Below, in pieces: positions 28,932-60,500 of a stretch of DNA of 64,000 bases. How positions within the stretch are numbered: the stretch's first letter is position 1; each line of letters begins with the position of its first letter. The stretch comes from Eledone cirrhosa. Its lineage: Eukaryota. The translations under genes and the position numbers were made by a program. The stretch covers positions 270,196,001-270,260,000 of the forward strand of contig OZ024740.1 of the NCBI GenBank assembly GCA_964016885.1, written 5' to 3'. A model generated the notes under the pieces. It had not been told where the DNA came from and ran no database searches. It saw only the letters and a program-made list of their open reading frames with translations.

Positions 28932-30702
28932 CTATAAGAAGCACTATCAGCCAATACAAGCCGAAAACTCAGAAGAATATGGAGTGTACATAGATTAAAT
29001 CATAGGAAAATAATCGGGTAAAAATCATCAAGTAAAAAATTATCAAGTGCTAATTGCTAAGGAAGTAAGTAACATTTTGAACCATATTACAAATATAGTC
29101 CAATGCAAAAACTAGAGCTAAAACAGAGGTGGTGATATAGAGTGGGAATTATTGTACTATACATAATATAATATAATATAATATAATATCATATAATATA
29201 ATATAATATAATATAATATAATTAATAATGATAATAATAATAATGTTAAAAGACCCAATATACATATATATATATACACATGTACACACATATACATATA
29301 TATCTATACACATTTCCATCAATAGAAGCACAAACTAACCCTTATCAAGAGTTTAAATATAAATAAGAATAATAATAATAAAAATAAAAATAAAAATACT
29401 AATGAAAAATACAAATGAAAATAAAATTAAAATATAATGCATATAATATTTACAGTATAAAATGAATGATTAAAAGTAAGCATAAAATATATAATAAACT
29501 ATATAATTATATAATAATATAATAGATAATCTCCGGTTAATTTGCACAAACAATATAAATTTTACAATAACAACTAAAATCACAATATTATAATATAATG
29601 GCATATAACTTAACAAATCATATAGATTTACAGTCAGGGTGAGAAAAATATTGTACAGAACTAAATTATATTGGAAAAATTATGTTGGAAATATATCAAA
29701 ACCATTGCAAGAAAATAGATCAAATTTCTATACATTTGGTGTAAATAAATAAATATTATCCAAACATTACATGAATTATAAAAATGTCAACATATTACAG
29801 GATTTACAGAATTTAACATAAAATAATAATGATCAGTAGTATGTTTACAAAGAGTGGAATGATATAAAATTTCAATATAAAATATTGAACATAGTATAAT
29901 ATACATAATTACATGGTTGGTGGAGAGCCGTTTGTGAATAAGAGAATGAGAGTCAGACAGACAGACTACGCACGGTAGTATATATAAATAAAAACAATCA
30001 GCCGGAAATCAAAAAACAAAAACAAAAGTATTTACTTAGGTGTCGCATGCAGTTAAGTAAAAAAATTTAGGAAACAAACCCGGATAAATGACTAGAAAAC
30101 CCTATTAAATTAATTAATATTGAAAGTAAATAAAATACATAATAAGTCCATACAAATTTAGCTATGGTTTAAGTAATCAAAATCCCCTAATTTAAATATA
30201 TCACTATAAAAATATATCTAGAAAAAATGAAATATTCAACTATCAGTTGAATAACGTTATCTAATAAACATGTTTTAAATAGAATTATGGTAGGTCAATG
30301 GGGACAGAAACAAGAAATGTATGGAGGATATGAAAGAGCATAAAATCATAATCAACATACTGTATTGTACAATAGAAAGGAGCATACAAGGGAATTGGAT
30401 ATAATTATAGTATATTTGAAGGGGCGAGTGACAAGTGAGTATGTGTGTGTGTGGGGGGGGGGGGGGGGTAGTTATTCAAAGAATAATCCAAATAAAATAG
30501 ATTAAGATAAAATATATAATCAGATATAAACTCATAAGGTGTTAATAGTGAAAATATAAAATTTAAGAAGATAGAAATGGTATGGTAGCCAAAAGATTAT
30601 GAAAGCTATAATGAAAAGCTGTCAAAAGCCAATGATAAAAATGATGATAATGATGGTGGTAAACATAATAAACCTTAACTAAAAGGTAAGGTAATGTAGC
30701 GG

Positions 30703-32355
30703 CTAATGGATACAATTTACACTACTAGAACTTTTAGGTTTATAATAAAAGTAAGAATTTGAAATGGCGTGGGGGCAAGAAGAGAATATCTCTGACTTTC
30801 TATTAAATAAGGTTTCCCTAGAGAAAATTATAGAATGGGTCTCAAGGATACAGAGATTGCAAAATTTAGTATGTGTTGAAAGGTTATTAGAGCGTGCTAC
30901 TATACGCCAACTAAGGCTATATGGTATATTAGCCCCCTTAAGATCCCAGATATGGTGTGCTAAAGGAATAGAATTCTTAAACTTAACATGTTTAAAATTA
31001 GAGATATGAGAATTAAACCTAGTCTTAAAAGTGTTAGATGTCGAGCCTATATACGTGCTATTAAAAGAATTAGTTTTAACCACACAAGCATGAACTATGT
31101 TCTTAGAGAGGCAGTTACCGTTTAAAGGGCAGTTAGCACTCACTCTACAGTTACACTTCCGGGTGTTATTGATCGGCTGAAGTAGTGATACATCGCACGT
31201 AGGATTACTATGAGATAAAGTCTGCTCTGGTGGTAAGGCATTTACGGATCTATTCTGACTAACAGCACGTAGAGAGGAGTATCCATCCCTAATTTTCCCA
31301 TTGTTAGTGCTAGCTAAATGAGAACTAATATTAGGGGTGGTAGAGAATGAAAGTTTAATTACATTTTTATTAAAAATACTATGGTATTTATTATTAGGAG
31401 GGAAGTTTTTCTCTAAGATAGAAAAGAAAGACCTAGGAATGTTAGTTACTACTTCCTGATTATATGGCGGGTTAAAATAAGTATTTAGTCTCCTTCTATT
31501 TTTATCCTTACCAACTCTACCGTTATCTAATGTCCCAATATTAAGATTTGGGTTACTACAAGGATTAGTTAAAACCACATTACTAGAATCAGCCGAAACT
31601 CGATTAAGTCTCTTTCTGTTTCTACCTCTAGTATATTTGCCGCCATCTGGAGTCATATCAAAAGGATTAGGGCCAATAATAGGATCAGTAAAAACAACAT
31701 GATTAGAATTAGGTATAACAAAAGTATTACCAATGGGTGAGCGCTCAGAGGGCTCGACTTGATTCCTAGATGTATTAGATTCTCTGCTATGAGTCCGGTG
31801 GCTTAACCCATGGATGGGTTCAGATACACCTATGTGATTTCTACGATTCTTATTCTTTCTACTCCCACTCATGGCCATATTATGGGATATTATGTTAGTC
31901 CCTTTACGTTCTGAGTTCAAATCCCGCCGAGGTTAACTTTGCCTTTCATCCTTACGGGGTCGATAAAATAAAGTACCAGTAATGTACTGGGTAATTGCTG
32001 GCCTTGTGCCAAAAGTAGAAACAATTATGTTATTATTATTATAAGTAAGCGGAGACTTTCTAAGGTTACTATTATTATAATGTATAATAACCTGAGTTAG
32101 CTAGGGCAATATTATAATACTCTGCATGTGCATTAAAAGTTTCTACGTCCTTAGAGAGTGTGGAAATCCTATTAGATACACCATTAATTATAGAGCGTAT
32201 TATAGATTTGGGGTGGTTAGAATTTGGACTAACATAAGAGAGTATTTCATTAGGCTTATGGAAGGGTTTAAAACTATTAGTGACCAAGTCCAAAGTCACA
32301 TCTAAAAAGTTGACCGCTCTATCGTTACTATCTATCGTGATCGAAAGATTATAGC
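30703..32355 (-). pseudogene. PLE RT C-terminus, Cys-rich linker and GIY-YIG endonuclease, disrupted by stops and a SINE
   Basis: VNFLDVTLD, SNHPKSI, YFNPPY, IKLSFSTTPN, CNCRxxxxCPLxGxC, IVHACVV...TYIGST, RFNSH, CNLCILE. Confidence 0.85.
31898..32023 (+). mobile_element. SINE family A inserted in the PLE ORF
   Basis: 5'-truncated copy. Direct repeat attatgtta at 31889-31897 and 32024-32032. Confidence 0.9.
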
Positions 32356-32960
32356 TTTTAGTTTGTGCAAATTAACCGGAAATTATCTATTATATTATTA
32401 TATAATTTTATAGTTTATTATATATTTTATGCTTACTTTTAATCATTCATTTTATACTGTAAATATTATATGCATTATATTTTAATTTCATTTTCATTTG
32501 TATTTTTCATTTGTATTTTTATTTTTATTTTTATTATTATTATTATTATTTATATTTAAACTCTTGATAAGGGTTAGTTTGTGCTTCTATTGATGGAAAT
32601 GTGTATAGATATATATGTATATGTGTGTACATGTGTATATATATATATGTATATTGGGCCTTTTAACATTATTATTATTATCATTATTAATTATATTATA
32701 TTATATTATATTATATTATATTATATTATGTATAGTACAATAATTCCCGCTCTATATCACCACCTCTGTTTTAGCTCTAGTTTTTGCATTGGACTATATT
32801 TGTAATATGGTTCAAAATGTTACTTACTTCCTTAGCAATTAGCACTTGATAATTTTTTACTTGATGATTTTTACCCGATTATTTTCCTATGATTTAATCT
32901 ATGTACACTCCATATTCTTCTGAGTTTTCGGCTTGTATTGGCTGATAGTGCTTCTTATAG

Positions 32961-33014
32961 CTTTAATTGCCCTGATGAGTCCTTAATAGGACGAAACATT
33001 GTTGGCTAATAAAG
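32961..33014 (+). ncRNA. Minimal type I hammerhead ribozyme (inverted pseudo-LTR copy)
   Basis: Same sequence as 28878-28931, on the opposite strand. Confidence 0.8.
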
Positions 33015-38477: not shown

Positions 38478-38544
38478 CAAAGTCTCCCTTTGGTCTCAAA
38501 TGACCATGAGTTGTACACCTGGAATGTTCCTGTTTGAGGCCAAG

Positions 38545-41537
38545 CCCAGTAGAACCCAGGACGCGATGACGTATGTGCGCGAGTACGGCAAACCAGACCT
38601 ATTTATTACTTTTACATGCAATCCTTCGTGGCAAGAAATTGCCCATGAACTCCTTCCAGGACAACAGCCCAGCGGTCGCCATGACCTCTCATCCAGAGTC
38701 TTCGAGCTAAAAGTATACAAACTAATGGACCTTATCACAAAGAGCCAGGTATTTGGACGTGTGCAATGTTACATTTACACAATTGAATGGCAGAAGCGGG
38801 GACTCCCCCATGCTCACATTCTTATTTGGTTGTCGACAAAAATCAGAGCAGACGACATCGACATGATTATATCCGCACAACTTCCAAACCCGCAAACTGA
38901 CAAAACCCTATTTGACAGGGTTACGGCGTACATGGTTTCACGGTCCTTGTGGACGTGGCTTCAAATCTAACTCCCCGTGTTTGAACAACGGTATTTGCTC
39001 CAAAAAATACCGAAAAGCCTCTCTTCGCGAAACTCAAACTGCTGATGACGGATACCCATCATACAGACGAAGAAGCCCCGAGGATGGAGGGTTAACAGCA
39101 CTGGTTGGAAAACATGAAATTGACAACCGTTGGATTGTACCGTACTGCCCATTACTACTCAAGGCGTTCAACTCCCACATAAATGTTGAATGGTTCAACT
39201 CTATTAAATCAATCAAATATGTCTACAAATATATTAATAAGGGCCCGTATGCCGCCATGTTCGGGCTTAAAGAAGAAAACAAACGGGATGAAGTTGCACA
39301 GTACCAATCAGCACTATATATAAGTACCAGCGAGGCCTTTTGGGGAATTTACCGTTTGTCAAAGCACAAAAGATACCCTGGCGTCCAACACCTTGCTGTG
39401 CACCTGGAAAACAGCCAAATAGTGTACTATACAAAACAAACAGCTTTTCTGAGGGCTTTCTAACCAAGTAACACAACACTTACTGCATTCTTTCAACTAT
39501 GTCAAGGCGACGCTTCCGCTCGCACTTTGCTGTATCCCCAAGACCCCTCTTTCTGCAAATGGGAAAAATATTCATGGAAGTCAAGAATCAAAGGTGAAAG
39601 CATTGATGGTCAGCCAGATTTTAACTTTGACAGCTGCCTGGCCCGAGTTTACACAGTGCGCCTCATCTACCAAGAATGTTATTACCTGCGTATGCTTCTC
39701 CATGACGTAAGAGGACCAACCAGTTTTCAACACCTAAGAACTGTTGATTGCCACATTTGCGACGCGTACAGAGAAGCCTGCCTTAGGCGTGGACTACTGG
39801 AAGATGGTGTTCAGTGGGATGCCACTTTGGCAGAAGCAGTTGTTTCACAAATGCCACACAGCCTTAGGAAGCTCTTTGCTGTCTTACTGTACATTTGTGA
39901 ATTGCCCGATCCTTCCTTCTTGTGGCTCAAGTACAGAGATGACCTCTCTGAGGACTTCAGGCATCAAGCACAATTACAACTTCCTGACATGGAAGTAGGC
40001 TTCACAGATGAAATCTACAACAAAGCACTTATTGAAATTGAAAATATGATTGCTGCAATAGGTGGGAATGCACTGCAGATATATGGCCTGCCCCAAACCA
40101 ACAGAACATGCTCTGGCGTCATTTCCGCAGAAATACTTCGGGAACTATCCTACGACACTGACAGCTTGGCTACATATGTCACTGAACATGAACCAATGCT
40201 GCTTCAGGAACAGGAACGAGCATATAACACTATTGCTGACTGTGTCCACCGTCGTACGGGAAGAATTTTTTCTTGGACGCCCCTTGAGGCACCGGGAAGA
40301 CTTTTGTCATACGGCTTCTCCTTGCCAAGGTTCGACAACACAGACACATAGCACTTGTTGTTGCGTCTTCCGGTATTGCAGCAACCTTGCTTCCTGGGGG
40401 CAGAACAGCACATTCAGCCTTCAAACTCCCCCTCAATATGACAGCAAATGACACATCCTGCTGTAATATTACCAAAGGATCAGAAAAGGCAGAACTGCTT
40501 AAAAGGTGTGAACTTATAGTTTGGGACGAATGTACCATGGCTCATAAAGGATTTTGGAGGCACTGGACCGGACTTTAAGAGACATAAAAGACTCTCAGGG
40601 TCCCATGGGAGCTATGACTGTCCTTTTATCCGGAGATTTTAGACAAACCCTCCCTGTTATTCGCAAAGGAACAAGGGCTGATGCTATTCGAGCATACTTA
40701 AAGTCGTCTCCGCTTTGGCGTTATGTCACAATATTAACGCTCTCTACGAACATGAGAGCTCGGATGCTTGATGACCAAGTGTCATCAGAATTTGCTACAC
40801 ATATTGACACTTGAGAACGACAAAGTGACACTTGATGAAGATGAAAAAAATCTCCCTCAAACCGGTCTGCACTTTAGTCGACAGTGCTGATGACTTGACA
40901 GATGCAGTATTCCCTGAGTTGAGCACTAACTACCAAAATCCAAACTGGCTGTGCGAAAGGGCAATACTGGCCCCGAAAAATGAGATTGTCGACAAAATCA
41001 ACGGACAACTGCTTAAGTCTCTTCCTACAGCTTCGTGTACATACAAGTCCATCGATACAGTCCCAGACCCCATTAACTACCCAATTGAGTTTCTTAACTC
41101 ATTGAACCCCTTCGTGTTGCCATCTCGTCGATTGGAACTTAAGCAATGATGCCAAATTATGCTTTTGAGGAATCTACACCCACCAAAACTCTGCAACGGC
41201 ACCCGCCTTACAGTAAATAAACTAACGCAAAACTTGATCGAGGCGACGATTCTCTCGGGGTGTGGAAAGGGGGAAAAAAATTTATCCCAACGATTCCCCT
41301 TTGTCCGTCAACATCAGAGATTCCCTTTTCATTTAGGAGGCTCCAGTTTCCAGTTCGTTGTAGTTTCGCTATGACGATAAATAAGTCTCAGGGGCAAACA
41401 TTGTCGTCGCGGGAATAAACCTAGAAGAGCCATGTTTTTCGCACGGTGGATGTTCCAGAGTGGGAAGCAAAAGAAACCTTTATGCATTTGCTCCAAACGG
41501 TAAAACTACAAACATTGTGTACCAAGAAGTTCTGTAA
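38545..41537 (+). pseudogene. Helitron RepHel (HUH Rep plus PIF1-like helicase), N-terminally truncated, multiple frameshifts
   Basis: [82 protein letters not shown]. Confidence 0.92.
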
Positions 41538-41729
41538 TCAACACTGCGACACAAACCGACTTCTAACAATCAAATACTTCGCTGCTTTCAATAATTACCA
41601 AATTGTAGACATACTGCCTTTTTGAAATTCATAACACCTTACTTTTCGACTGTAAACGTTGTGACCACTTTGAACTGCACGGTATTGAAATGCACGTTCC
41701 CCTCTGGTTGGTTGAGCCAGTTTTCCATG

Positions 41730-42080
41730 GATTCGCCAGCGCGTGCAGCAGACGTTGATTCACATGTCTTTGCTGCCGCAGTTGACGCTGTGTTTCGGTT
41801 GATGCAGCTCAAGCTGCGGAAGTTGCCTCAGCATTTCCATGCCACCGTAATGAACGCTGTGATTCGTTCTCTGCATCTCCTGCAATAGATGTTGTCTCAA
41901 TATTTGCTTTCTGTCGCAGTGAGGGTTGAGAATCGTTTTCTGCACCTCAAACAGCAGCAGTTGCCTCAGCGTTTATTTGCTGTCGCATCGAACGTTGTGT
42001 TTCGTTTCTTGCATCTCGTGCAATAGAAGTTGCTTCAGCATTTTTCTTTTGGCGTAATAATCGCTATTCGTTATTCTCTG
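41730..42080 (-). pseudogene. Decayed 23-aa STPR-like repeat coding segment, antisense to the Helitron A RepHel
   Basis: Units ENNE*RLLRQKKNAEATSIARDA, RNETQRSMRQQINAEATAAV*GA, ENDSQPSLRQKANIETTSIAGDA, ENESQRSLRWHGNAEATSAA*AA, STETQRQLRQQ... Confidence 0.6.
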
Positions 42081-43685
42081 TTACTTTTGCAATCGAGGTT
42101 GGTGCAGAATTTGTGTTGAGGAATTTTGAGCGTCCTTCATGTTTGGTCTATGTCACTGCAATCAGTCTAAGGAGAGCAACGTCACAGTTTCTATTGGCAG
42201 CCACAACTATACAGAATGGTAAGCATTTCAAACTACATAAATCATTAGAATGCCTACATATACGCAATGCAAAACGAAAAATGTACATGTTTCTACTGTA
42301 GCAAACGTATGGCACCCCCCTCATTTGTACATTTCGCTCAAAGCCGTCATACATTATCTCCGTCATCCCGCAACGACTTCAGTCCCTGAATTGCCAAACA
42401 TCCCACATTATTGTCATAAATTCCATGTGACTCACTTTTGGGCTGCTGACTTCCTTGTCGCATAGTTCGCGTTTGGAGCTTCACCGCGTCAACATCACAC
42501 TTTTACACTCATTCACCTTTCATATGCCATAACATTTTACCGTTTTTACATCCAACAACACATACTTCTTATGGTTAAAAATAAATGTTTTTTTTTTGGG
42601 GGGGGGGGTTCGTGCTACGTTGGTTTCTCTTTAAAAAAATTATTTACTAATGGTAGACTTACACCCGAGCAACGCCGGGTATGGCTGCTACTATATATAT
42701 ATATATATGCAGGGCGGTATTTTGATACAGACACCCAGGTTGACGTAACCATTTAACCTTCAATATAACACCCACCAGTCATTGCTGTTGTTTTAGTCTA
42801 GGGAAGATCTGATTTAAAAACTTTTTTCGATGAAAGTTGTTGCAGCAGTAACCATCCTGTAATTTATGTTGATACTGACACTGTGTATCCAGGACGATAA
42901 CATCCAATGTGAGCTTCCCATTAAAAAGACAAAAGGGTTAAGTGTAATTTCAGAGATGCGGCAATGATATCTAGCCGGTAACGCTTCTAAGTACAATGGT
43001 TTTGTTCGTTTTTTTTACATTGAATTAAAGTGTCATTAAATATATAACGTGATGGATCAATAAATCGATATATTCAACAGGTGGCTCTTCAATCTACTAC
43101 ATTGTCTGAAGTCGGTAAATGAATAAAGCAATAGCTGTCTGGTAAGCTACCATACAATAATAAATATGAGCGCCTTTAAACAATAACTGTTGCTTTACTA
43201 AAACTAATTAATTGTGTCTAGTTCAGTGTATTTTAAGTAAATACATATTAAGTATACCAGTTAACAGAGAGCCAGTGTACTAATGAAAGCAGTCAATAAA
43301 AGCAATGAGATTAGCAAATTAATCAATGAGAACCGAGAACACAATAATATTTAACTCTAACTCGATATTATCTATGGACTAACTAATGAAACACATAGCC
43401 ATAGCCACACAAACGCATAAACAAATGCATACAAAATAAACAACTTGCAATCTCGCCCGTGTTTCAAATTTGAGCCCTGAGATTATATATAAAGAACTAG
43501 CGGAGCTACCCGGCTTCGCTCAGTGTTAAAAAGCTTATTTAGAAAAGAATAATATTAACATTTTAATCGTTATTTAAAAACTTCTGGAATTTAGTTTCTA
43601 TTTTTTAGATTTTAACATTTATCTTTAAATGACTGAATGACTGACGAATTTAAAGAAAATTCGTTATAAGAACATTTAATTTGTT

Positions 43686-46600
43686 TTACTGAAGTGCTTT
43701 TGGATACACAATGTTTTTTGTTTTTCCTTCTGGTGCGTACACGAATAAATCAGAAGGTTTACCGACGCGTGAGCAAGCCACATACAGCTGTCCATGTGAG
43801 AAGCATGGATTTTCTAAATTTAGTCCACACACTTGTAGCGATTGTCCTTGTGCTTTGTTGATAGTCATTGCAAAGGCGAGTCGCACCGGAAACTACAAAC
43901 GTTTGAAATCGAATGGCGTATCTGTTGGAATGATTGGGATGCGTGGCAAGAGTACATCTTCTCCTTTAAATTTTCCATTTAAAATTGTAGCCTCGATGAT
44001 ATTGTTCATCGTCTTTTTCACTGAAAGTCTGGTACCGTTGCAAAGTTGTTTCGGAGAAGGATGATAGGCACGCCAATTTTCAATGTTAAAATGTGCGGTG
44101 GCATGCCTGGCAAATCAAGTGAATTCAAGAATTCAATTGGATAATTGATAATTTCGTCTTGATTCATTACAGTATCGATGGACTTATACGTTGTCGCTTC
44201 GCCTGGTATTTCGTTTTGAATGCTGAAATTAATGGCATTAACATCGGTGTTTTTGGCTACTAATATAGCACGTACACTGAGCCACTGATGATTTTTGTAA
44301 TGCTGCGCAATATTTGGGAACACTTTGTGAATCAGTTCGTCTCTGGTTGCCGTGATTCTACAGAAGTTTGTTGGCAATGTGATACATTTTGTGGAATCAT
44401 CGATTACCATTTTCCCATTCCCAATATCCAGCAATTGTTTTGTGAAACGTTCAGCGGATGCGTCATTTTGTAGTTGTACACGCATATTGTTTTTTAAAGT
44501 TAATTTCTGTACGTGTCGCCATAAAACTGATGATTTGAGACATGCATTAAGCTCATCAGCGGGTGTTGATCGCGGTATAGCTGGTAGAGTTTGTCGAAAA
44601 TCACCAGACAATAAAATGAGTGTGCCACCGAAGAGCTGTTCATTTCCTTTCAAATCTTTTAGCGTATTATTAAGCGCTTCCAATGATTTTTTGTGCGCCA
44701 TAGTACATTCGTCCCATATAATGATTTTACATGATTGGAGTACTTTACCTATACCAGAATTTTTGGTAATATTGCATGTTGATATCTCAGCGATTTGCAT
44801 ATTCAATGGCAATTTCAGGGCTGAATGTGCTGTTCGGCCACCATCTAAAAGAGTTGCCGCACTTCCAGATGATGCGATTGCCAGTGCAATATTATTTTCT
44901 GATCGTATAGTTGCCAAAATAAGTGAAATGAGAAAAGTTTTGCCTGTACCACCGGGCGCATCTATAAAATACAATCCGCCGCTTTGACTTATAATTGCCG
45001 GCATAATTTCAAGGTGCACCGCCAAATGAACAACTGTTGGATGTGGATGATGGATTGGAAATGATAAAATGCGCCATACTGCTTCATTACTACTAATGTA
45101 GCGTCCTAGTTGGTATTGGTCGATTTCATCGATAGGTGTAGTTGCATTGCACACTCCAAAGACTGCCATATCGCTTCCTTTGTTGATATATTTGCAAATG
45201 TACTTGATCGCTTTCACCGAATTGCAATACTCGACATTGATGTGTGCTTTGAACGTCTTCGAGAGTAACGGTGGATATGGTACAATCCAACGATTATTGA
45301 CTTCAACATAATTGTTTCGTACTTTTAAAGTGATGGATTTGCCGCCATCTTCAGTTGCTCGTCGACGATAGAATGGATATCCGTCATTGCCAGTGATAGT
45401 GTCGGCAAGTAAGTCTTTTGGGTATTGCTTCGTGCATTTCCCATCAGACATGCATGGTGAATTGTTGTTGAGTAAGCCACATGGACCATGAATCATGTTT
45501 TTAGTGATGACTTCAAATAAGTCTGGATCAACGTTGACATCTGGTATTTCTGCTGAGATGATTTGATCAATTAGATCTGGTGTGAGTTTTTCAATCAACC
45601 AAATCAAAATGTGTGCATGTGGCAATCCTCTTTTTTGCCATTCAATGGAATACATCCAACAGCGTGTCTCTCCAAAAACATGATGCTTGACAATGAAATC
45701 GATTAAAGATTTCAATTTTTGTTTGAACACACGCGCTGTAATATCATGACGATCCGAAGATGATTGACCAGGTAACAAAAGTTCTTTAATTTCATCCCAC
45801 GTAGGATTGCATGTGAATGTAATGAACAAATCTGAACGGCCATATGCGCGAACATATGTCATTGCATCTTGTGCGTATTCATGCATGTGCCGTGGACTCC
45901 CTGTAAATGTAGCCGGCAGTATGACCATTTTCCCCAATTCATTAGGATTCATATTGCCATCATTAAGAATGGCATCACGTAAATGAATGTACTCTTCTGA
46001 ACGTAGCTTGGTTTGATTCAATCGAACGTAGAGAAGTCGTTCGGTTTCGATTTTTGCATACATATCGACAATGTATTGATGGAACAATTGTCGACATTTC
46101 AAAATATGATTTTCACCGTTTTCACGAATCATTAATCTATATGAATAATAATTCATGGCACTGAGTTTCTTATTCGTTTCCTCATCTGTTTCTGGATTTC
46201 TCAGTTTGATGTTGAAATGATATCCATCTTCTCCTTGCCAAAATAAAATTGGATATTGCAATCCATCGTATGACCGATGCGTTTCTGAGACTCGCTGAAC
46301 ATCACCATTTCTGCGGTGAAGAATTATATCACGCGAGTTAATTTCTTCACCTACTATAACGATCGCCACTTCATCAATTGTTGGTGCATTCTACTGTCTT
46401 TGATGTTGGCCAACAGGTGTTTTGTCTGCTCTAACTACAATTGTGTAGTCATCATTTGGCATTTGTTCCAGGGCAGCTCTGAACAATCTAATTAATTTGT
46501 TGTGATGATTGAATAAAGTTTGTAATGCAGTAACAATTTCTCGTTTAGTTCCCCTATTGAATTTGCAACGTTGATCTATTTGGTCATCAGTGTTTCCCAT

Positions 46601-48607
46601 GAAATAAATTTGAAGAAATTTGTGATCTGCGTCCGGCAGTGGTAGTAGTGATCCAGCACGATGATAAATTTGCCCTTGCACTTTGAATGTTGGCATGTAA
46701 TTCTCGCGCACGATATTTGTTGCACCGAACGATGTCATTTGGAAACATGAATTGTACTTGCGTATGTTTGCCAAGAAATGTTTAGATTCGCTTGTGTCAC
46801 CTGATACTAACGTTGATAATGGTTCAGGTGGTGGATGTAATTCTGGCAATTTCACTTTTCCACCCGAGCAGCACATTCCTGGTGTTTCATTTTTAAATTT
46901 GAGGGCACCACAATACCCGCATAATTTATCCATTTTTCCAATAATCACACTTGGATGAAGACTGTAATCACAATTTGAATCGTAATGAAATGCACCAAGA
47001 TTGAAATCATCGTGCAGTATTCTTCTTGTGAGAGCATTGCGTAGTCGATTCGTTTCCACTCTTGCTTTCCGTTGCTCGTCTGTTTCAGATGAACGGGCTT
47101 GAGCAGTTGTTACTCGAACGGTTTCCACTCTTGCTTCCCATTGCTCGTCTGTTTCAGATGAACGGGCTTGAGCAGTTGTTACTCGAACGGTTTCCACTCT
47201 TGCTTTCCGTTGCTCGTCTGTTTCAGATGAACGGGCTTGAGCAGTTCTTACTCGAACGGTTTGCAATCTTGCTTCCCGTTGCTCGTATGTTTCAGATGAA
47301 CGGGCTTGAGCAGTTCTTACTCGAACGGTTTGCAATCTTGCTTCCCGTTGCTCGTATGTTTCAGATGAACGGGCTTGAGCAGTTCTTACTCGAACGGTTT
47401 GCAATCTTGCTTCCCGTTGCTCGTATGTTTCAGATGAACGGGCTTGAGCAGTTCTTACTCGAACGGTTTGCAATCTTGCTTCCCGTTGCTCGTATGTTTC
47501 AGATGAACGGGCTTGAGCAGTTCTTACTCGAACGGTTTGCAATCTTGCTTCCCGTTGCTCGTATGTTTCAGATGAACGGGCTTGAGCAGTTCTTACTCGA
47601 ACGGTTTGCAATCTTGCTTCCCGTTGCTCGTATGTTTCAGATGAACGAGCTTGAGCAGTTCTTACTCGAACGGTTTGCAATCTTGCTTCCCGTTGCTCGT
47701 ATGTTTCAGATGAACGGGCTTGAGCAGTTGTTACTCGAACGGTTTGGAATCTTGCTTCCCGTTGCTCGTATGTTTCAGATGAACGGGCTTGAGCAGTTCT
47801 TACTCGAACGGTTTGCAATCTTGCTTCCCGTTGCTCGTATGTTTCAGATGAACGGGCTTGAGCAGTTCTTACTCGAACGGTTTGCAATCTTGCTTCCCGT
47901 TGCTCGTATGTTTCAGATGAACGGGCTTGAGCAGTTGTTACTCGAACGGTTTGGAATCTTGCTTCCCGTTGCTCGTCTGTTTCAGATGAACGGGCTTGAG
48001 CAGTTCTTACTCGAACGGTTTGCAATCTTGCTTCCCGTTGCTCGTATGTTTCAGATGAACGGGCTTGAGCAGTTCTTACTCGAACGGTTTGCAATCTTGC
48101 TTCCCGTTGCTCGTATGTTTCAGATGAACGGGCTTGAGCAGTTCTTACTCGAACGGTTTGCCATCTTGCTTCCCGTTGCTCGTATGTTTCAGATGAACGG
48201 GCTTGAGCAGTTCTTACTCGAACGGTTTGCAATCTTGCTTCCCGTTGCTCGTATGTTTCAGATGAACGGGCTTGAGCAGTTCTTACTCGAACGGTTTGCA
48301 ATCTTGCTTCCCGTTGCTCGTATGTTTCAGATGAACGGGCTTGAGCAGTTCTTACTCGAACGGTTTGCCATCTTGCTTCCCGTTGCTCGTCTGTTTCAGA
48401 TGAACGGGCTTGAGCAGTTGTTACTCGAACGGTTTGCAATCTTGCTTTCCGTTGCTCATCTGTTTCAGATGAACGGGCTTGAGCAGTTCTTACTCGAACG
48501 GTTTCCAATCGTGATTCCCGTTGCTCGTATGTTTCTGAAGCTCGTAATGCATATTTTTTCGTTGCTTGAGGGGTAGATTGACCAATCGCTCGTCGTTTGG
48601 GAGGCAT
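43686..48607 (-). pseudogene. Helitron RepHel: STPR-like array, zinc finger, HUH Rep, PIF1-like helicase; inactivated
   Basis: CGYCGALKFKNETPGMCCSGGKV, EWQKRGLPHAHIL, KYICKYINKG, DAPGGTGKT, WDECTMAH, AMTINKAQGQS, HGQLYVACSRV. Lesions: in-frame TAG at 46391-46393 inside RQ(Y)NAPT, linker deletion near 45008, frameshift near 44050, stop near 43895. Confidence 0.93.
47051..48535 (-). repeat. Coding tandem repeat: 21 full and 1 partial 69-bp unit (consensus ETYEQREARLQTVRVRTAQARSS)
   Basis: The gatgaacg motif recurs every 69 bp from 47088 to 48468. The reading frame is uninterrupted. Confidence 0.97.
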
Positions 48608-50334
48608 AATTGAATAGAAAATATTTTATCACAATCACTCTACCGAAATGAGAAGTAGTGTGAAATACGTATGAAGAACTCAATGTAATCGAAATGTAGA
48701 AGGAGTCATAACCAATATGTATGTGTTGATTGATGATATAAACAATTGTAAAAACAGAGTGAAAATAATACAAATTATTCAGACAAAATAACACGTACCT
48801 CAGTCCTTCATCAGAAAATTACAGTATATAAGGAAAATGGATCATGGTATTATAAGTGATCATTGTTTATGTGGTAGGGTAATAAAACTAAAAATATAAA
48901 ACCAAAGTATGAAGAAATAAGTAGTAACTTCTATAGAGATAAAGGTAGGGAAGGTAAGCTGCTGGTGTAAGTCCAGGTCAGGAAAATAAGGACAGACGAA
49001 ATGAAGATATCAAATTACAGCAGTTAGTGGCTATAAGATAGCTAGAGTAGAAATTCTAGTGATTGGCTATAAGATAGCTAGAGTAGAAATTCTAGTGATA
49101 ATAGTGGAAGAGAGATATAATATTTTAAGAATATTAAAACACCAAGGTATTATAATATTTTAAGAATATCAAAACACCAAGGTATTAAAAAGGAAACCCA
49201 GAAACGGTATATGGAGAAATGAGGAAAAACAGGAAAAAACTCTATATAGATACATAGACTAAAAGAAAAGGATGAAGAAATAAGTAGTAACTTCTATAGA
49301 GATAAAGGTAGGGAAGATAAGCTGTTGGTTTATGTCCAGGTCAGGAAAATAAGGACAGACGAAATGAAGATATCAAATTACAGCACTTAGTTAAGGGCTA
49401 GCTGAAAAAGAATTCCCTGTAATGGGAGTGGAAGGGAAGTAATGTGAAACAGACACTATACTAATTCTATTGAAATTATATTAAATTAAAGAGAGAATTT
49501 ACTAATTCTATTGAAATTATATTAAATTAAAGAGAGAATACTAATTCTATTCACACTCGCTCTTTCACTCACTCTTTGTCTATACGTTGATTTCTCTTTC
49601 TCCGTTTATAGCACTCTCTCTTTGTCTATACGTTGCTCTTTCACTCTCTCTTTGTCTATACGTTGATTTCTCTTTCTCCGTTTATAACTTTAGAGACAGT
49701 CTAACATAGGGAGTGGTTCAAAGCAGCCAGACTACTCGCTCTTTCACTCTCTGTTTGTCTATACGTTGATTTCTCTTTCTACGTTTATATCTTTGGACAA
49801 ACAAACAAACATACATTCATTTTTATATATATAGATATATATTATAGTAGATGTATATATGAGGGCATGTACGATATGGTTGTTTATAATAGACATGGTT
49901 TGCTTGCTATGAATTCTTCCTTAAGCTGCGATCATGTTTCGGCTATATTAGTAGCAATGAAATTGCCAGACCGCTGCTTCGGAATGTTATACATCATCAG
50001 TGGTATTGACTCACTCGATACTGAGACGAGAATAGGGTAAAGCAGATATGGATTTTGCGTCAGAAACATCAGTAGGAGATGCTCATTTCAATATAGTGCA
50101 AATTTGACAGGTTAGGATTTATTAGAAGTGGCACTAAGATGTGTTTCATAAGCATATGAAAGCATGTATAAAATATTTATTCATAATAATCATACCAGTC
50201 GCACTATAAATGTTTTCTTGTTACAGCTATCTCAGTAGCTATACTAGTGCCTCTTCTAGTATGCACTATGCTATGCATTGGATAGTCTGCGAAAACTGAG
50301 GCACTCCTTCTCTCAAAGATGCCAGCACAGTGCA

Positions 50335-50926
50335 TTCTACGTGTGAATGAAGTTCAACTGAAGCAGGTGCAGAATTTCAAGTATCTCGGGGCCGTGTTCA
50401 TGAGTGTTGGAAGGCAGGATGTTGAATTAAGTGCAAGAATTGCAGAAGCTGGTGCAGTATTGCAAAGGTTTCAGCATTAGGTAATCAGAAAAAAGGAGGT
50501 AGGTGTAAAAGCCAAACCCTCTATCTTCAATTCGTTATTCATGCCAACTCTTACCAATGGTCATGAATCTTGGGTAATGACCGAAAGAATACGATGGCGA
50601 ATACAAGCGGCCGACATGGGGTTCCTCTGACTGGGTCTTTGGAGTAATGTTACTCGATACAGTGCGTAGCTCCGAGATCAGTGAGTCACTCCAGGTAGAA
50701 TCGCTCGTTTTCCGAATTGAGAGATCGCAGCTCCGATACTATGGACATGTGGTGACAGTGTCCCAGGAAAGTATCGCTGGACAGATTTTACAGGAAAAAC
50801 CAACTGGCAGGAAATCTAGGAGTAGACCCCGAGCAAGATATTTGGATAACATCCACGGGCCCGGCTGATCTCGCTTGAGGATCAGACCGGATCAGTTGGA
50901 GACGGTCTCTTCTGACAGGACCCTCT
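50335..50926 (+). mobile_element. RTE-clade LINE 3' fragment, related to 22908-23207, with (GAA)n tail
   Basis: NFKYLGAVF, PTLTNGHESWVMTERI, RSQLRYYGHV, GRKSRSRPR. Confidence 0.8.
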
Positions 50927-54845: not shown

Positions 54846-55985
54846 TGGTGGCTGCCAACTCGTTTTCGAGTACAGTCACTACTTTATATCCATGTAGGAG
54901 AACCCCTACCGATGCCCTGAACGAGTGTGACTTTTTAGTCCAGCCAGCGACTTGAAAACTCTGGTGCAAACACGAAACTTGTGACAATTATTGACACATA
55001 GTACTGGGCCCATGGTACCATGTGACGACAAGTGCAGTGAGATCTCCAGATATAAAGCAATGCCTGTGCCATGAAGCTTTTATAGTGAGCAAAGGCACTG
55101 CACAAAGCCAGTCCCACTCTCTTAACCAAGATGATATTTACCAAAAAGAAGAACAAGTCAACATCATTGGATACCATCAGGGTTGCAGGTGTTATATCAG
55201 AGTTTTCCTTCTCCTAGAATTCTGCCTTGACAAAGGCTAAGGGGTCATCTCTCCCAGTGATTTTGGATGGCCATTGACTCTTAAGAGCTCCTTTGTTTTT
55301 AGTCCTGCAGGATGTCCAAAGTCACCCTCCTCACCAAGAAACCTTGGTGGGGTTGCCAGTTTAGTCGCCAACGACCCGACCATGAGACAGGTTGTATTGG
55401 GATACATGTTACCAGTAGCACCAAGTGGTGACCTGACATACATACATGTATACATACATACATGTATACATGCATACAAACATACATGCATACATATACA
55501 TGCATACATATATACATGCAAGCATACATACATACATGATGGCTGCCAACTCGTTTTCGAGTACGGCCACTACTTTATATCCATGTAGGAGAACCCCTAC
55601 CGATGCGCTGAACGAGTGTGACTTTTTAGTCCAGCCAGCGACTTGAAAACTCTGGTACAAACACTACACTTGTGACAATTATTGACACATAGTGCTGGGC
55701 CCTTGGTACCATGTGACGACAAGTGCAGAGAGATCTCCAGATATAAAGCAATGCCTGTGCCGTGAAGCTTTTATAGTGAGCAAAGGCACTGCACAAAGCC
55801 AGTCCCACTCTCTTAACCAAGATGATATTTACCAAAAAGAAGAACAAGTCAACATCATTGGATACCATCAGGGTTGCAGGTGTTATATCAGAGTTTTCCT
55901 TCTCCTAGAATTCTGCCTTGACAAAGGCTAAGGGGTCATCTCTCCCGGTGATTTTGGATGGCCATTGACTCTTAAGAGCTCCTTT
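54846..55985 (-). mobile_element. Two tandem copies of a non-coding retroelement with (ATGT)n tails (54846-55437 and 55517-55985)
   Basis: Near-identical copies with a shared 3' end (gagttggcagcca.c-(atgt)n) and different 5' ends. (TACA)n lies between and around them. Confidence 0.75.
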
Positions 55986-57570: not shown

Positions 57571-60500
57571 CTACAGCCGCATGACCAGAGTAGGCCCACT
57601 CACACGGGCCATTCTCGCCACATTCACCCACCTTTCAGCAAATGTACTGGGGCGCAGCACTTCTCTCTCCACCCTCACCTTTCTTTCCAAGTAAAACTTG
57701 AAAAAGTTGATGAGGGATTGACCGAAGAGAAAAGTGTCTGTCTTCAGTCCTTTCAACCTCGTTCACCATACAACCTCTTTCGCTTCTGCCACCTAACAGA
57801 GGAAAATTGCCTGCCCTTCTTGGCCAAAAGAAGGCGGCGGGTCGATCTTCACTATGGACTCGGCCGATAGCCGGATCCGTTCTACACGCGACAACAGCTG
57901 TTCAACATAATTCACAAGTCAGTAATGCACGGACACTTGACGATGCGTGCAGAACGGTTTCGTGGCTCTGCGCGCATCTCGGGCAGGTCCGTCTGACAGC
58001 ACTTCCGTACCTGTAGAGTTTATCTCGAACCGGCAGTGCCCCCCGGTAGCACTGCCAAGCGAGGGATTTTTGGAAATTATCCATCGTCCCCGGCTCGAAA
58101 GTCCCCCGGTACAGACCGGTCAGTTCGTCTTCGTTGACTCCCAGAGCCTCTCCGAGTGCGTCGTCGCACTTGCCCACCACTAATCCCCCATAGAACTCGA
58201 GAGTGGAATTTCCACTGGCCGCATTGCCCGCCTGGTAGAGGGCAGTGAGTGCCTGGCAACATTCCAGATGCCAGTCACCCAGTCTCGGTCTCTTCTTGAC
58301 CCAGGACTGCAAGTCAGTCAAAGAAACGAGCTGCGGAAAGGCCCATCTGACAAACGCCGACCACACCTGTTCACCGTTTAGGCGGAATATCTGGAGATGC
58401 CGCAGCCTCAGCGCGTGCCTGCGCATCATTAGCCACGGCATGCGCAACCCTCCACGTAGAGGGTGCTGGCAGCAGATGAACCCCCTCACCAGCAGAACCT
58501 GACTCCTCCACAAGAATTTGAAGAGGAGCCGCTCCAAGATGGCGAGGCGCAAACGGGGGCAAGGGACGACTGTCAGACGGAAGTAGATGACGTTCGCCAC
58601 CTCCGCCCGACCTTTCAGTGATAGCTTCATCCCAGCCCATTTCTGAGTGAGACTGGCTACCCTGCCCGTCACCTCGTCCCAATTCTTATTCACCTGGAGG
58701 TCTAGACCGAACCAAACCCCGAGCAACTTTACCGGTCCGACCGACCAGCGCCTAACGACGCTGTTGGAAGGCATGGACTTGCCTCTCCAGCTGCCGAGTT
58801 GCAAGCCCACCGACTTTTCCGGGTTAAGTTTTGCTCCCGACAACCTTTCATATTATTCCAATAAGTTGCCGACCACCTCGATTTCTGAGGTGTCCGACAC
58901 CATCACGGTGATGTCGTCCGCATAAGCCGACACAGCCTTTCCGCGATCTGGTTCGAGCGGGATGCCCTGCAACAGCTTCAGCTTCCGCAGTAAAGGCTCG
59001 TGAGTCAATATGTACAGAAGGGAGGAGAGAGGGCACCCTTGACGGACCGATCGGGAGACCTGAAACGGTTCCGTGAGGTGGCCATTAATTTTGACCATCG
59101 AGCAGGTGCCGCTGTACATTGCAGCGATCCAGCTTCTTAAGACGGGGCCGAAGCCAGCCGCCTTGAGGACAGCCTCCAGGTACCGATGGTCGACTCTATC
59201 GAATGCTTTCGATTGATCTGAATTGATCAGATCCCCACCGAACCCAGGTTTACACCCCAGCCTCGCTATGACTTATCGCATTAGGTGGAGGTTGTCGTGT
59301 ATGGACCTGGTTGGGATTGCGCAAGTTTGCGCCTCCCCAACCAAATCCCCGACGACAAGCGCCAACCTCTTCGCTAACACCCTGGACAAAATCTTAAACA
59401 CTGTGTTGAGCAGAGTTATGGGCCTGAAATTGTCTAATGTGTCCGTCTTGTTCTCGTCTTTCCTTATTAGCGTCACTACTCCCCGGCTCACAGAACTGGG
59501 AATAATCCCGTTTTGCTGCCAGTTGCAGTAGAGGGCTTCGAGGAGATTGGAGAACAAGTCTGGCATATTTACGTAAAGCACGTAGGGCAGACCATCCAAA
59601 CCGGGTGACTTGCGCCTCATGCAGCCGACAAGGGCATCCTCAATCTCAGCTGAAGTAATTGCCCTTTCGCAGCGCCCAGCATCGGCCGTCGAGAGTTGCG
59701 GCAAGCCATCGAGGTAGGGACTGAAGTCCGCCACCGTCTCTGACCTGCCACTTCCCCCGAACAACCGAGCAAAATGTTGGCGAAAGGCCTCACACATCCG
59801 CCTGGAATCGTTCAGCTCGTGTCTCTCTCGGTCCGTCAAAGACTGAATCGTGGTTTTATTACCACGCTGCGCCTCTGCCACGCGGACCCATCGAACAGCT
59901 TTGGTTCTCTCGTTTCTCAGAGCACGGGCCTTAGTTCTGACAATGCAACCTTCGTGTTTTGCATTGAATAAATGGTCTAATGCTATTCTCGCCGCTAGCA
60001 CGTCAGTTGCAATGCAACTACCAATAGCCTCGTCTAACTTATCTACCAACTCCCCCTCCTTTCTATTTTTCTCTAACGCTACTTCTTTGCTAAACTCTAT
60101 CGACATTACTCTAATCTCTCTTTTGAGAGCCCCCCACCATCTATTGTTGACGACTCCGCCTGTCAACTTTTTCTTAACTAAATTGTTGACCTGGTCCCTG
60201 TAAGCCTTACGTGCCGGAAATGACATGTTTATCTTCCAGTAACCAGGTCCTAACCTACGCGTCATATCTAGGTCGACCATACAGATCACAAACTTGTGAT
60301 CTGAATAGGCGACCGTTTCAAAACGTGGACAGCTTACACTATTTCTGTCTATTTTCCTAATGAATATCCTGTCTATATACGATCTAGATGACCCTATTTG
60401 GTTAGTCCAGGTCCACACTAGCGCATTAGGGAAATCTAGTCGGTACCTGTCAGTCAGTTGGAACTGGCTGATCAGGTTCTTGAAGCTTTTGCACCCCCCG

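What the first reader, a model, noticed from the sequence alone, without database searches (positions are those of the whole stretch)
47051..48535. Helitron transposase with a roughly 21.5-unit STPR-like array and a period-3 variant pattern
Seen: 21 full 23-aa units and one partial unit are fused in frame just after the start of RepHel. There is no stop or frameshift in the array, although the rest of the ORF has several lesions. Variation is largely confined to a few positions (3 Y/D, 7 E/K, 10 L/W/F/V, 11 Q/E, 16 R/T). Aromatic residues at position 10 fall in units 3, 6, 9 and 12 (W,W,F,F), which implies a 207-bp higher-order repeat. Seven L units and diverged terminal units follow. Established: the 23-aa ETxEQRxxRL pattern is the STPR motif of the silkworm DNA-binding protein FMBP-1, which has four units, and STPR-like repeats occur at some Helitron N-termini. 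Inference: this could be a modular, length-variable DNA-recognition array on a rolling-circle transposase, or simply neutral unequal crossing-over.
Basis: partly seen in the sequence, partly recalled or inferred. Interest (0 to 1): 0.75.

Follow-up and report, generated by a model that had tools for sequence, protein, structure and literature searches.

The report
Overgrown STPR arm on dead Helitron
A broken rolling-circle transposon carries 21.5 near-identical copies of a predicted DNA-binding helix at the front of its transposase, where its sister copies mostly carry 2 to 6, and the extra length and three-unit pattern are likely leftovers of ordinary repeat duplication rather than a DNA-recognition code.

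Summary
The array is in the assembly as described: 21 full and one partial 69-bp unit, in frame after the start of a Helitron transposase. It is STPR by Pfam (E 2e-55), and its predicted fold matches DNA-bound FMBP-1 (rmsd 1.2 A over 64 residues). The copy is dead (private stop, 825-bp deletion, frameshift). Of 23 complete arrays in this genome, 20 have 6.5 units or fewer (median 4.5); the window's is the longest. An open array is expected by chance (P 0.41). The period-3 pattern is weak (P 0.05) and fits two separate 207-bp duplications: W and F are independent mutations, and a dead sister has its own, stronger period-3 repeat. The variants hit positions conserved across Helitron STPRs, while positions that vary between families are fixed here, so there is no sign of a code. 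STPR units at the RepHel N-terminus are common (74 of 93 homologues; 5 have 10 or more), and HELIANO already lists STPRs in HLE1 Helitrons. Earlier notes of this scan report STPR expansions in other Helitrons of this genome. Side lead: 19 of 29 copies sit directly before (TA)n runs, which FMBP-1-type STPRs bind well. No reads tested the array length.

The parts
49795..49835 (-). Left terminal sequence: 5' TC after an A, a (TA) run, an A run, then five 4-bp TGTN units
   Evidence: same start in the sister copies
48608..49794 (-). Subfamily-A 5' leader with short internal repeats
   Evidence: 96-98% identical to full-length subfamily-A sisters
48536..48607 (-). Start codon and 24-aa basic leader of the transposase
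47051..48535 (-). STPR array, 21.5 units of 69 bp / 23 aa; unit types ABCDDEDDFDDGHDDDDDDIJK
   Evidence: Pfam PF21107 E 2.3e-55; PDB 5d23 E 7.6e-6; model of units 17-22 matches 5d23, Z 8.1, rmsd 1.2 A, 64 of 64 residues
46394..47050 (-). RepHel N-terminal domain with CxxC...CC zinc-finger-like motif
   Evidence: (aligns to Helraiser 7lcc)
46391..46393 (-). Premature stop; the fully open sister and related runs have a sense codon here
45020..46390 (-). Rep (HUH) region, Helitron_like_N E 3.8e-60; HUH and two-tyrosine motifs present
45005..45012 (-). Junction of an 825-bp (275-codon) in-frame deletion private to this copy
   Evidence: related runs carry the missing segment as loose ends here
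43686..45004 (-). PIF1 helicase region (E 4.8e-58), broken by a 13-bp deletion near 44050 and a later stop
43497..43525 (-). Right terminal sequence: GC-rich palindrome and CTAG followed by T

Best explanation
This is a dead copy of a small canonical Helitron family whose transposase starts with a row of STPR helices predicted to bind DNA, and in this copy the row likely grew to 21.5 units by neutral tandem duplication, which left the three-unit pattern. Shown: the array, its STPR identity, the lesions, the short sister arrays, unselected decay of the family's coding sequence. Inferred: in the active parent a few units wrapped the major groove of AT-rich double-stranded DNA at about 4 bp per unit, as FMBP-1 does, holding the transposase on the TA-rich left end or on the TA-rich target. 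Inferred: slippage or unequal exchange between near-identical 69-bp units changes the number freely; two exchanges offset by three units, with breakpoints between unit bases 7 and 29, give D3-W10 then Y3-W10 (units 3, 6) and D3-F10-T16 then Y3-F10-T16 (units 9, 12).
For: Complete arrays in G000 run 1.5-21.5 units, median 4.5, 20 of 23 at 6.5 or fewer. An exact 31-base unit core occurs 98 times in the genome, 20 of them in this array, all in loci already found. The copy is 0.59% from its subfamily majority with 15 non-synonymous, 3 synonymous and 2 stop changes; sisters show a similar excess on a near star-shaped tree. At the family's rate of stops and frameshifts (0.60 per kb) an unbroken 1485 bp has P=0.41. 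Only F10 is private to this array and it occurs twice; W10, D3, K7, V10, E11, T16 and the silent base-60 change occur in sister arrays. Likely new changes number about 3 against 6.7-8.8 expected if the array were as old as the copy (P 0.025-0.10). Dead sister L055 (4 stops, several frameshifts) has a period-3 array with other residues, P=0.00035, a 1-bp deletion repeated in 4 units, and 2 differences between blocks against 11 expected. Across 280 units from homologues L10 (63%) and R16 (82%) are among the conserved positions, while positions 12, 13, 15, 17 and 19 vary widely; in this array the reverse holds. In FMBP-1, position 10 touches DNA only through its backbone and a water, and recognition is mainly by shape (PMC4856987, results read).
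Against: The only fully open frame among the fetched copies (L036, 1712 aa) has the second-longest array, 12.5 units; the chance of an open 5.1-kb frame is 0.045 per copy, so about 0.4 over roughly ten full-length subfamily-A copies, which does not exclude a link. The window array keeps variants typical of the other subfamily B, so it may preserve a long ancestral array from which short ones shrank. The age test for the window array is only borderline and assembly polishing can also homogenise repeats. The 1-bp deletion in L055 recurs at the same base in L046, so it may be a sequencing error. Long arrays of diverged units exist in other species. Position 16, a DNA contact in FMBP-1, does vary here. 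DNA binding by these units was not tested.
Confidence: 0.72

Rival explanations
1. The long array is the working state: the active parent carried 12-22 units giving strong, avid binding to long (TA)n or (TATG)n runs, and the short arrays of most copies arose by loss of units during or after copying.
For: Open copy L036 has 12.5 units; the window array holds subfamily-B-type variants and shares the base-60 variant with L031 and L036; 19 of 29 copies have 5 or more TA repeats directly 3'; 5 of 93 homologues have 10 or more units and L066 has 10 diverged units in a 1647-codon open frame with an intact left end.
Against: Median 4.5 units; the closest outside relative with an open 1529-codon frame has about 4 units (L064); array length does not follow copy age (Spearman 0.32, P=0.15, n=21); long arrays here have fewer changes than their age predicts; the window copy itself is not in a (TA)n run.
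Confidence: 0.17
2. The variant residues form a modular code (TALE-like), each unit type reading a different 4-bp word, with the period-3 order matching a 12-bp periodic site.
For: FMBP-1 reads 4 bp per unit (PMC4856987); position 16 is a DNA contact there and varies R/T here; the predicted fold matches the DNA-bound structure.
Against: 12 of 21 units are identical; W and F are unrelated mutations; F is private to a dead copy; unit order differs among sisters; positions that vary across families are fixed here; unit number does not follow the number of 4-bp units in the left end (L082: 10 units and no such tract; L102: seven 4-mers and about 6 units).
Confidence: 0.04
3. The array is partly an assembly or polishing artefact, a shorter array inflated or homogenised.
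For: No read evidence could be had; runs of identical units are what polishing can produce.
Against: The array is 1.5 kb in a 443-Mb contig with no gap in it; its 11 unit types are built from variants found in sister copies; it joins leader and downstream domain in exact register, as in the sisters.
Confidence: 0.07

Closest known systems
STPR domain of Bombyx mori FMBP-1 (PDB 5D23, Pfam PF21107; PMC4856987, results sections read)
   Same: 23-aa unit with E1, T2, Q5, R6, R9, L10; predicted helix-linker-helix chain superposing at 1.2 A over three units.
   Different: 21.5 units against four (3-7 in the homologues that paper lists); fused to a transposase; contact positions 13, 14, 16, 17, 20, 21 are V, R, R, T, A, R instead of M, S, Y, A, R, L, so the sequence preference need not be the same.
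Canonical Helitrons (HLE1) with STPRs, HELIANO survey (PMC11417382, passages and section 22 read)
   Same: 5' TC, 3' hairpin and CTAG, A|T insertion, RepHel, STPRs listed as a domain almost confined to HLE1.
   Different: That section does not name STPRs among the domains sharing the RepHel frame and says nothing on unit number; here the units are in frame with RepHel as in most homologues. Its supplements were not read.
Helraiser / Helibat1 transposase (PDB 7LCC; PMC4778049, passages read)
   Same: The open sister aligns over residues 248-1695 at E 1e-251; Helraiser needs its N-terminal 489 residues for DNA binding and prefers AT-rich DNA, most on the 3' side of the insertion.
   Different: Helraiser's N-terminus aligns only loosely to the last STPR units and has no long regular array; the structure paper could not be read.

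Membership tests
STPR repeat (PF21107) | Strict 23-residue tandem unit | tested here: met
   21 spacings of exactly 23 aa
STPR repeat (PF21107) | Conserved E1, T/S2, R9 | tested here: met
   present in all 22 units; features from PMC4856987
STPR repeat (PF21107) | Score above the Pfam cut-off | tested here: met
   185 bits against 27
STPR repeat (PF21107) | Short linker plus about 21-residue helix per unit, FMBP-1 geometry | tested here: met
   predicted only: pLDDT about 90, top match 5d23 Z 8.1, rmsd 1.2 A, 64 residues, next row Z 4.7; the predictor may have learned 5d23; Foldseek alone found no match at E<=0.001
STPR repeat (PF21107) | FMBP-1 DNA-contact residues (R6, R9, L10, M13, S14, Y16, A17, R20, L21) | tested here: inconclusive
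   R6, R9, L10 kept; the other six differ, with R14, R16, R21 conserved across Helitron units instead
STPR repeat (PF21107) | Binds AT-rich double-stranded DNA, 4 bp per unit | not testable with these tools
   needs binding assays
Canonical Helitron (HLE1) | 5' TC, 3' palindrome and CTRR, insertion between A and T | tested here: met
Canonical Helitron (HLE1) | RepHel with HUH, two tyrosines and PIF1 helicase | tested here: met
Autonomous (active) Helitron copy | Uninterrupted RepHel frame | tested here: not met
   stop, 825-bp deletion, frameshift
TALE-like coded repeat array | Hypervariable residues at a base-contacting position with unit order kept among copies | tested here: not met
   order and number differ among sisters; variation lies mostly at positions that do not contact bases in FMBP-1

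The most novel reading that the evidence does not exclude
The STPR row is a built-in, length-variable double-stranded DNA arm of animal RepHel transposases that docks the enzyme on (TA)n runs, so that insertion happens at the left edge of a TA microsatellite (19 of 29 copies have 5 or more TA repeats on the 3' side, 1 of 17 on the 5' side), and long arms of 10-22 units are functional forms tuned to microsatellite-rich genomes; it would be a natural 4-bp-per-unit scaffold for retargeting a rolling-circle transposase.
Probability: 0.2. Interest if true: 0.65.

Novelty: new member of a known kind. Interest (0 to 1): 0.27.

Why it matters
As a single locus it matters little: a long repeat in a dead transposon copy. 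It does show how freely the STPR coding repeat changes length, with higher-order patterns appearing in unselected copies. The family-level point is worth more: how Helitron transposases find their left end and their AT-rich target in double-stranded DNA is not explained in the papers read, and an N-terminal STPR arm is a concrete, testable candidate. This family offers natural arms of 1.5 to 21.5 units on one almost identical transposase, with one open copy.

Tried and rejected
Paper search for STPR and Helitron as whole words gave 0, but this missed the plural; the repeat search found HELIANO and its preprint. Searches for unit number or function of Helitron STPRs and for Helitrons in TA microsatellites showed nothing on point in the listings; only listings were seen for most of these. 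PMC11417379 (tandem-repeat DNA binders) has no mention of STPR or Helitron (passages). PMC12001565 and PMC13286980 passages gave nothing on STPR. The Helraiser structure paper is not held. Matching unit number to the number of 4-bp units in the left end failed. Alignment A1 misplaced the repeats and was not used. Foldseek gave no match at E<=0.001. A TA-microsatellite preference distinct from a general AT-rich preference is not shown: 19 of 29 exceeds all AT sites (17.6%, P 1.5e-8) and AT sites with 13 of 16 A/T (35%, P 0.0009) but not those with 15 of 16 (62%, P 0.44). The antisense 23-aa repeats of the neighbouring Helitron did not score as STPR.

Full report
Observation. The minus strand at window 47051-48535 holds 21 full 69-bp units and a 36-bp partial one. 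They translate in frame as 23-aa repeats 24 codons after the Met at 48607, in a 744-codon frame that ends at a stop at 46391-46393. At the DNA level there are 11 unit types in the order ABCDDEDDFDDGHDDDDDDIJK; twelve units are identical. W comes from TTG>TGG and F from TTG>TTC with a linked R16T change, so they are two independent mutations.

What the unit is. Pfam STPRs scores 185 bits against a cut-off of 27, and the best solved-structure hit by sequence is FMBP-1, 5d23. A model of units 17-22 with the next domain, from a 37-sequence alignment, gives one helix of about 20 residues per unit with short linkers at pLDDT near 90. Its best match among 48,161 chains is 5d23, Z 8.1, rmsd 1.2 A over 64 of 64 residues, the next row at Z 4.7; Foldseek found nothing at E<=0.001, and the predictor may have learned 5d23. 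In FMBP-1 each unit covers 4 bp of the major groove, AT-rich repeats such as (atac)n, (atat)n and (tata)n bind best, recognition is mainly by shape, and the contacts are positions 6, 9, 10 (backbone, through water), 13, 14, 16, 17, 20, 21 (PMC4856987, parts 1-4 of 5 read). The window unit keeps R6, R9, L10 and differs at the other six.

The element. It is a canonical Helitron from 49835 (5' TC after A) to 43497 (palindrome, CTAG, then T), with Rep and PIF1 domains. This copy is dead: a stop, an 825-bp deletion that none of the fetched copies shares in this form, and a 13-bp frameshift. Contigs from related runs carry the missing segment, and those covering the site have a sense codon at the stop.

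Sister copies. A DNA search of the own genome gave 179 matches, 40 of 42 candidates scored; 33 stretches were fetched. An exact unit-core pattern has 98 matches genome-wide, 20 in this array, all at known loci. There are two subfamilies about 2.8% apart; the window belongs to A, whose copies lie 0.3-0.6% from their majority with roughly three non-synonymous changes per synonymous one, as expected without selection, on a near star-shaped tree. Of 34 loci I counted 23 complete arrays, leaving out two duplicates of L040, five arrays cut at the 5' side and four loci without the array region. They run 1.5 to 21.5 units, median 4.5; 20 have 6.5 or fewer and three are long, 11.5, 12.5 and 21.5. Length does not follow age (Spearman 0.32, P=0.15, n=21). 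At 0.60 stops or frameshifts per kb, an unbroken array of this length has P=0.41, so the open frame is no sign of selection; 3 of 45 subfamily-A and 8 of 68 subfamily-B sister units are broken.

The period-3 pattern. Equal spacing of four marked units among 21 has chance 0.0105, but that joins W and F after the fact; a permutation test on units 2-19 gives P=0.050. Each pair has D3 in the first unit and Y3 in the second, which is what a 207-bp duplication with a breakpoint between unit bases 7 and 29 leaves (inference). Only F10 is private to this array and it is present twice; the other variants occur in sisters. Counting the two CpG-type singletons and F10, there are about 3 new changes against 6.7-8.8 expected (P 0.025-0.10), a mild sign that the array is younger than the copy. 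Sister L055, with 4 stops and several frameshifts, has a clearer period-3 array built from other residues (P=0.00035), with 2 differences between its three blocks against 11 expected and a 1-bp deletion in four units; that deletion recurs in L046 and could be a sequencing error. L043 and L049 show alternating, period-2 stretches. Higher-order patterns thus arise in dead copies.

Homologues. A protein search with the open sister found 1657 hits among 5178 candidates and listed 120; 21 of the 120 carry PF21107. With a unit score matrix and a shuffled threshold, 105 of 120 had a delimited N-terminus and 93 were at least 60 aa; of these 74 have one or more units, 52 two or more, 14 six or more and 5 ten or more, the most being 16. 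Across 280 units E1, Q5, R9, R14, R16 and R21 are conserved at 71-97%, T2, R6 and L10 at 60-63%, and positions 12, 13, 15, 17 and 19 vary widely; the window's variants hit 10 and 16 and leave those variable positions fixed. Among 80 metagenome loci, the closest relative has an open 1529-codon frame and about 4 units, and L066 has 10 diverged units in an open 1647-codon frame. So long arms occur in plausibly active elements, and this one is the longest seen in these searches but not a different kind.

Results against my reading. The only fully open copy, L036 (1712 aa), has 12.5 units; it carries 10 non-synonymous and 5 synonymous differences and lacks one codon that most sisters have, and an open frame has chance 0.045 per copy. 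The window array keeps subfamily-B-type variants, which fits descent from a long mixed parent array as well as later exchange. Neither can be settled without population data.

What the arm likely did. Helraiser needs its N-terminal region for DNA binding and prefers AT-rich DNA, most on the 3' side of the insertion (PMC4778049, passages). Here 19 of 29 copies with a mapped 3' end (two duplicates and three unmapped ends left out) are followed by 5 or more TA repeats, against 17.6% of 36,238 nearby AT sites, while 1 of 17 mapped 5' flanks is. The excess holds against moderately AT-rich sites but not against the most AT-rich ones, and the window copy itself is not in such a run. The left end also begins with a TA run and 4-bp TGTN units. 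An STPR arm binding either site is the simplest use for it, but this is inference; unit number does not match the number of 4-bp units in left ends, and the 3' TA run could instead be carried along from a parent's flank.

Known or new. HELIANO lists STPRs among domains almost confined to HLE1 Helitrons but does not name them among those sharing the RepHel frame and gives no unit counts in the section read (PMC11417382; supplements not read and may bear on this). My searches found no paper on unit number or function. Earlier, unchecked notes of this scan describe STPR units of other Helitrons in this genome growing into satellites of hundreds to thousands of copies; I did not test them. Verdict: a real, unusually long STPR array in a dead member of a known kind of element; interest 0.27, most of it from the untested family-level role of the arm.

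Noticed in passing
window 38540-42700 (+): A second, different and decayed Helitron (RepHel remains about 38540-41540, 3' palindrome near 42660-42680 followed by a TA run). After its RepHel stop, at 41790-42045, the minus strand encodes about five 23-aa repeats (46% identity at lag 23, at most 13% at nearby lags) with Q-R-x-x-R in STPR register and two stops. They did not score with Pfam or my matrix. Possibly a separate antisense repeat gene.
   Followed up: partly
3' flanks of L031-L063: 19 of 29 copies are followed by 5 or more TA repeats, but only 1 of 17 is preceded by them: insertion at the left edge of TA runs, or a TA run carried or added at the 3' end.
   Followed up: partly
L036:3135-8273 (G000:C2 about 315.526-315.531 Mb): The only fully open RepHel frame among the fetched copies, 1712 aa with 12.5 STPR units and both ends present.
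   Followed up: partly
L043, L045, L047-L050, L054, L057-L059: Ten subfamily-B loci carry a second left-end-like sequence fused directly to an STPR unit, skipping the leader; several hold a partial 5' duplication of the element.
   Followed up: partly
L040-L042 (G000:C25 about 597-628 kb): Three near-identical truncated copies spaced about 10.4 kb apart, a tandem segmental duplication.
   Followed up: no
window 47051-48535 and L055: Both long arrays with a higher-order pattern have a 207-bp period, close to a nucleosome repeat length (recalled, not from a call); two cases only.
   Followed up: no
runs X1, X2, X3, X23: Runs under two organism labels hold Helitrons about 97-99% identical to this family's coding region; whether this is close kinship or horizontal transfer was not examined.
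   Followed up: no
window 50330-50920 and 57900-58850: Decayed pieces resembling non-LTR retrotransposon reverse transcriptase regions (read; family assignment recalled, not tested).
   Followed up: no
window about 29000-33000: The tandem-repeat list mirrors itself around about 31000 (29020-29530 against 32475-32872), suggesting a long inverted repeat; two near-identical stretches also lie at 54935-55240 and 55626-55931.
   Followed up: no
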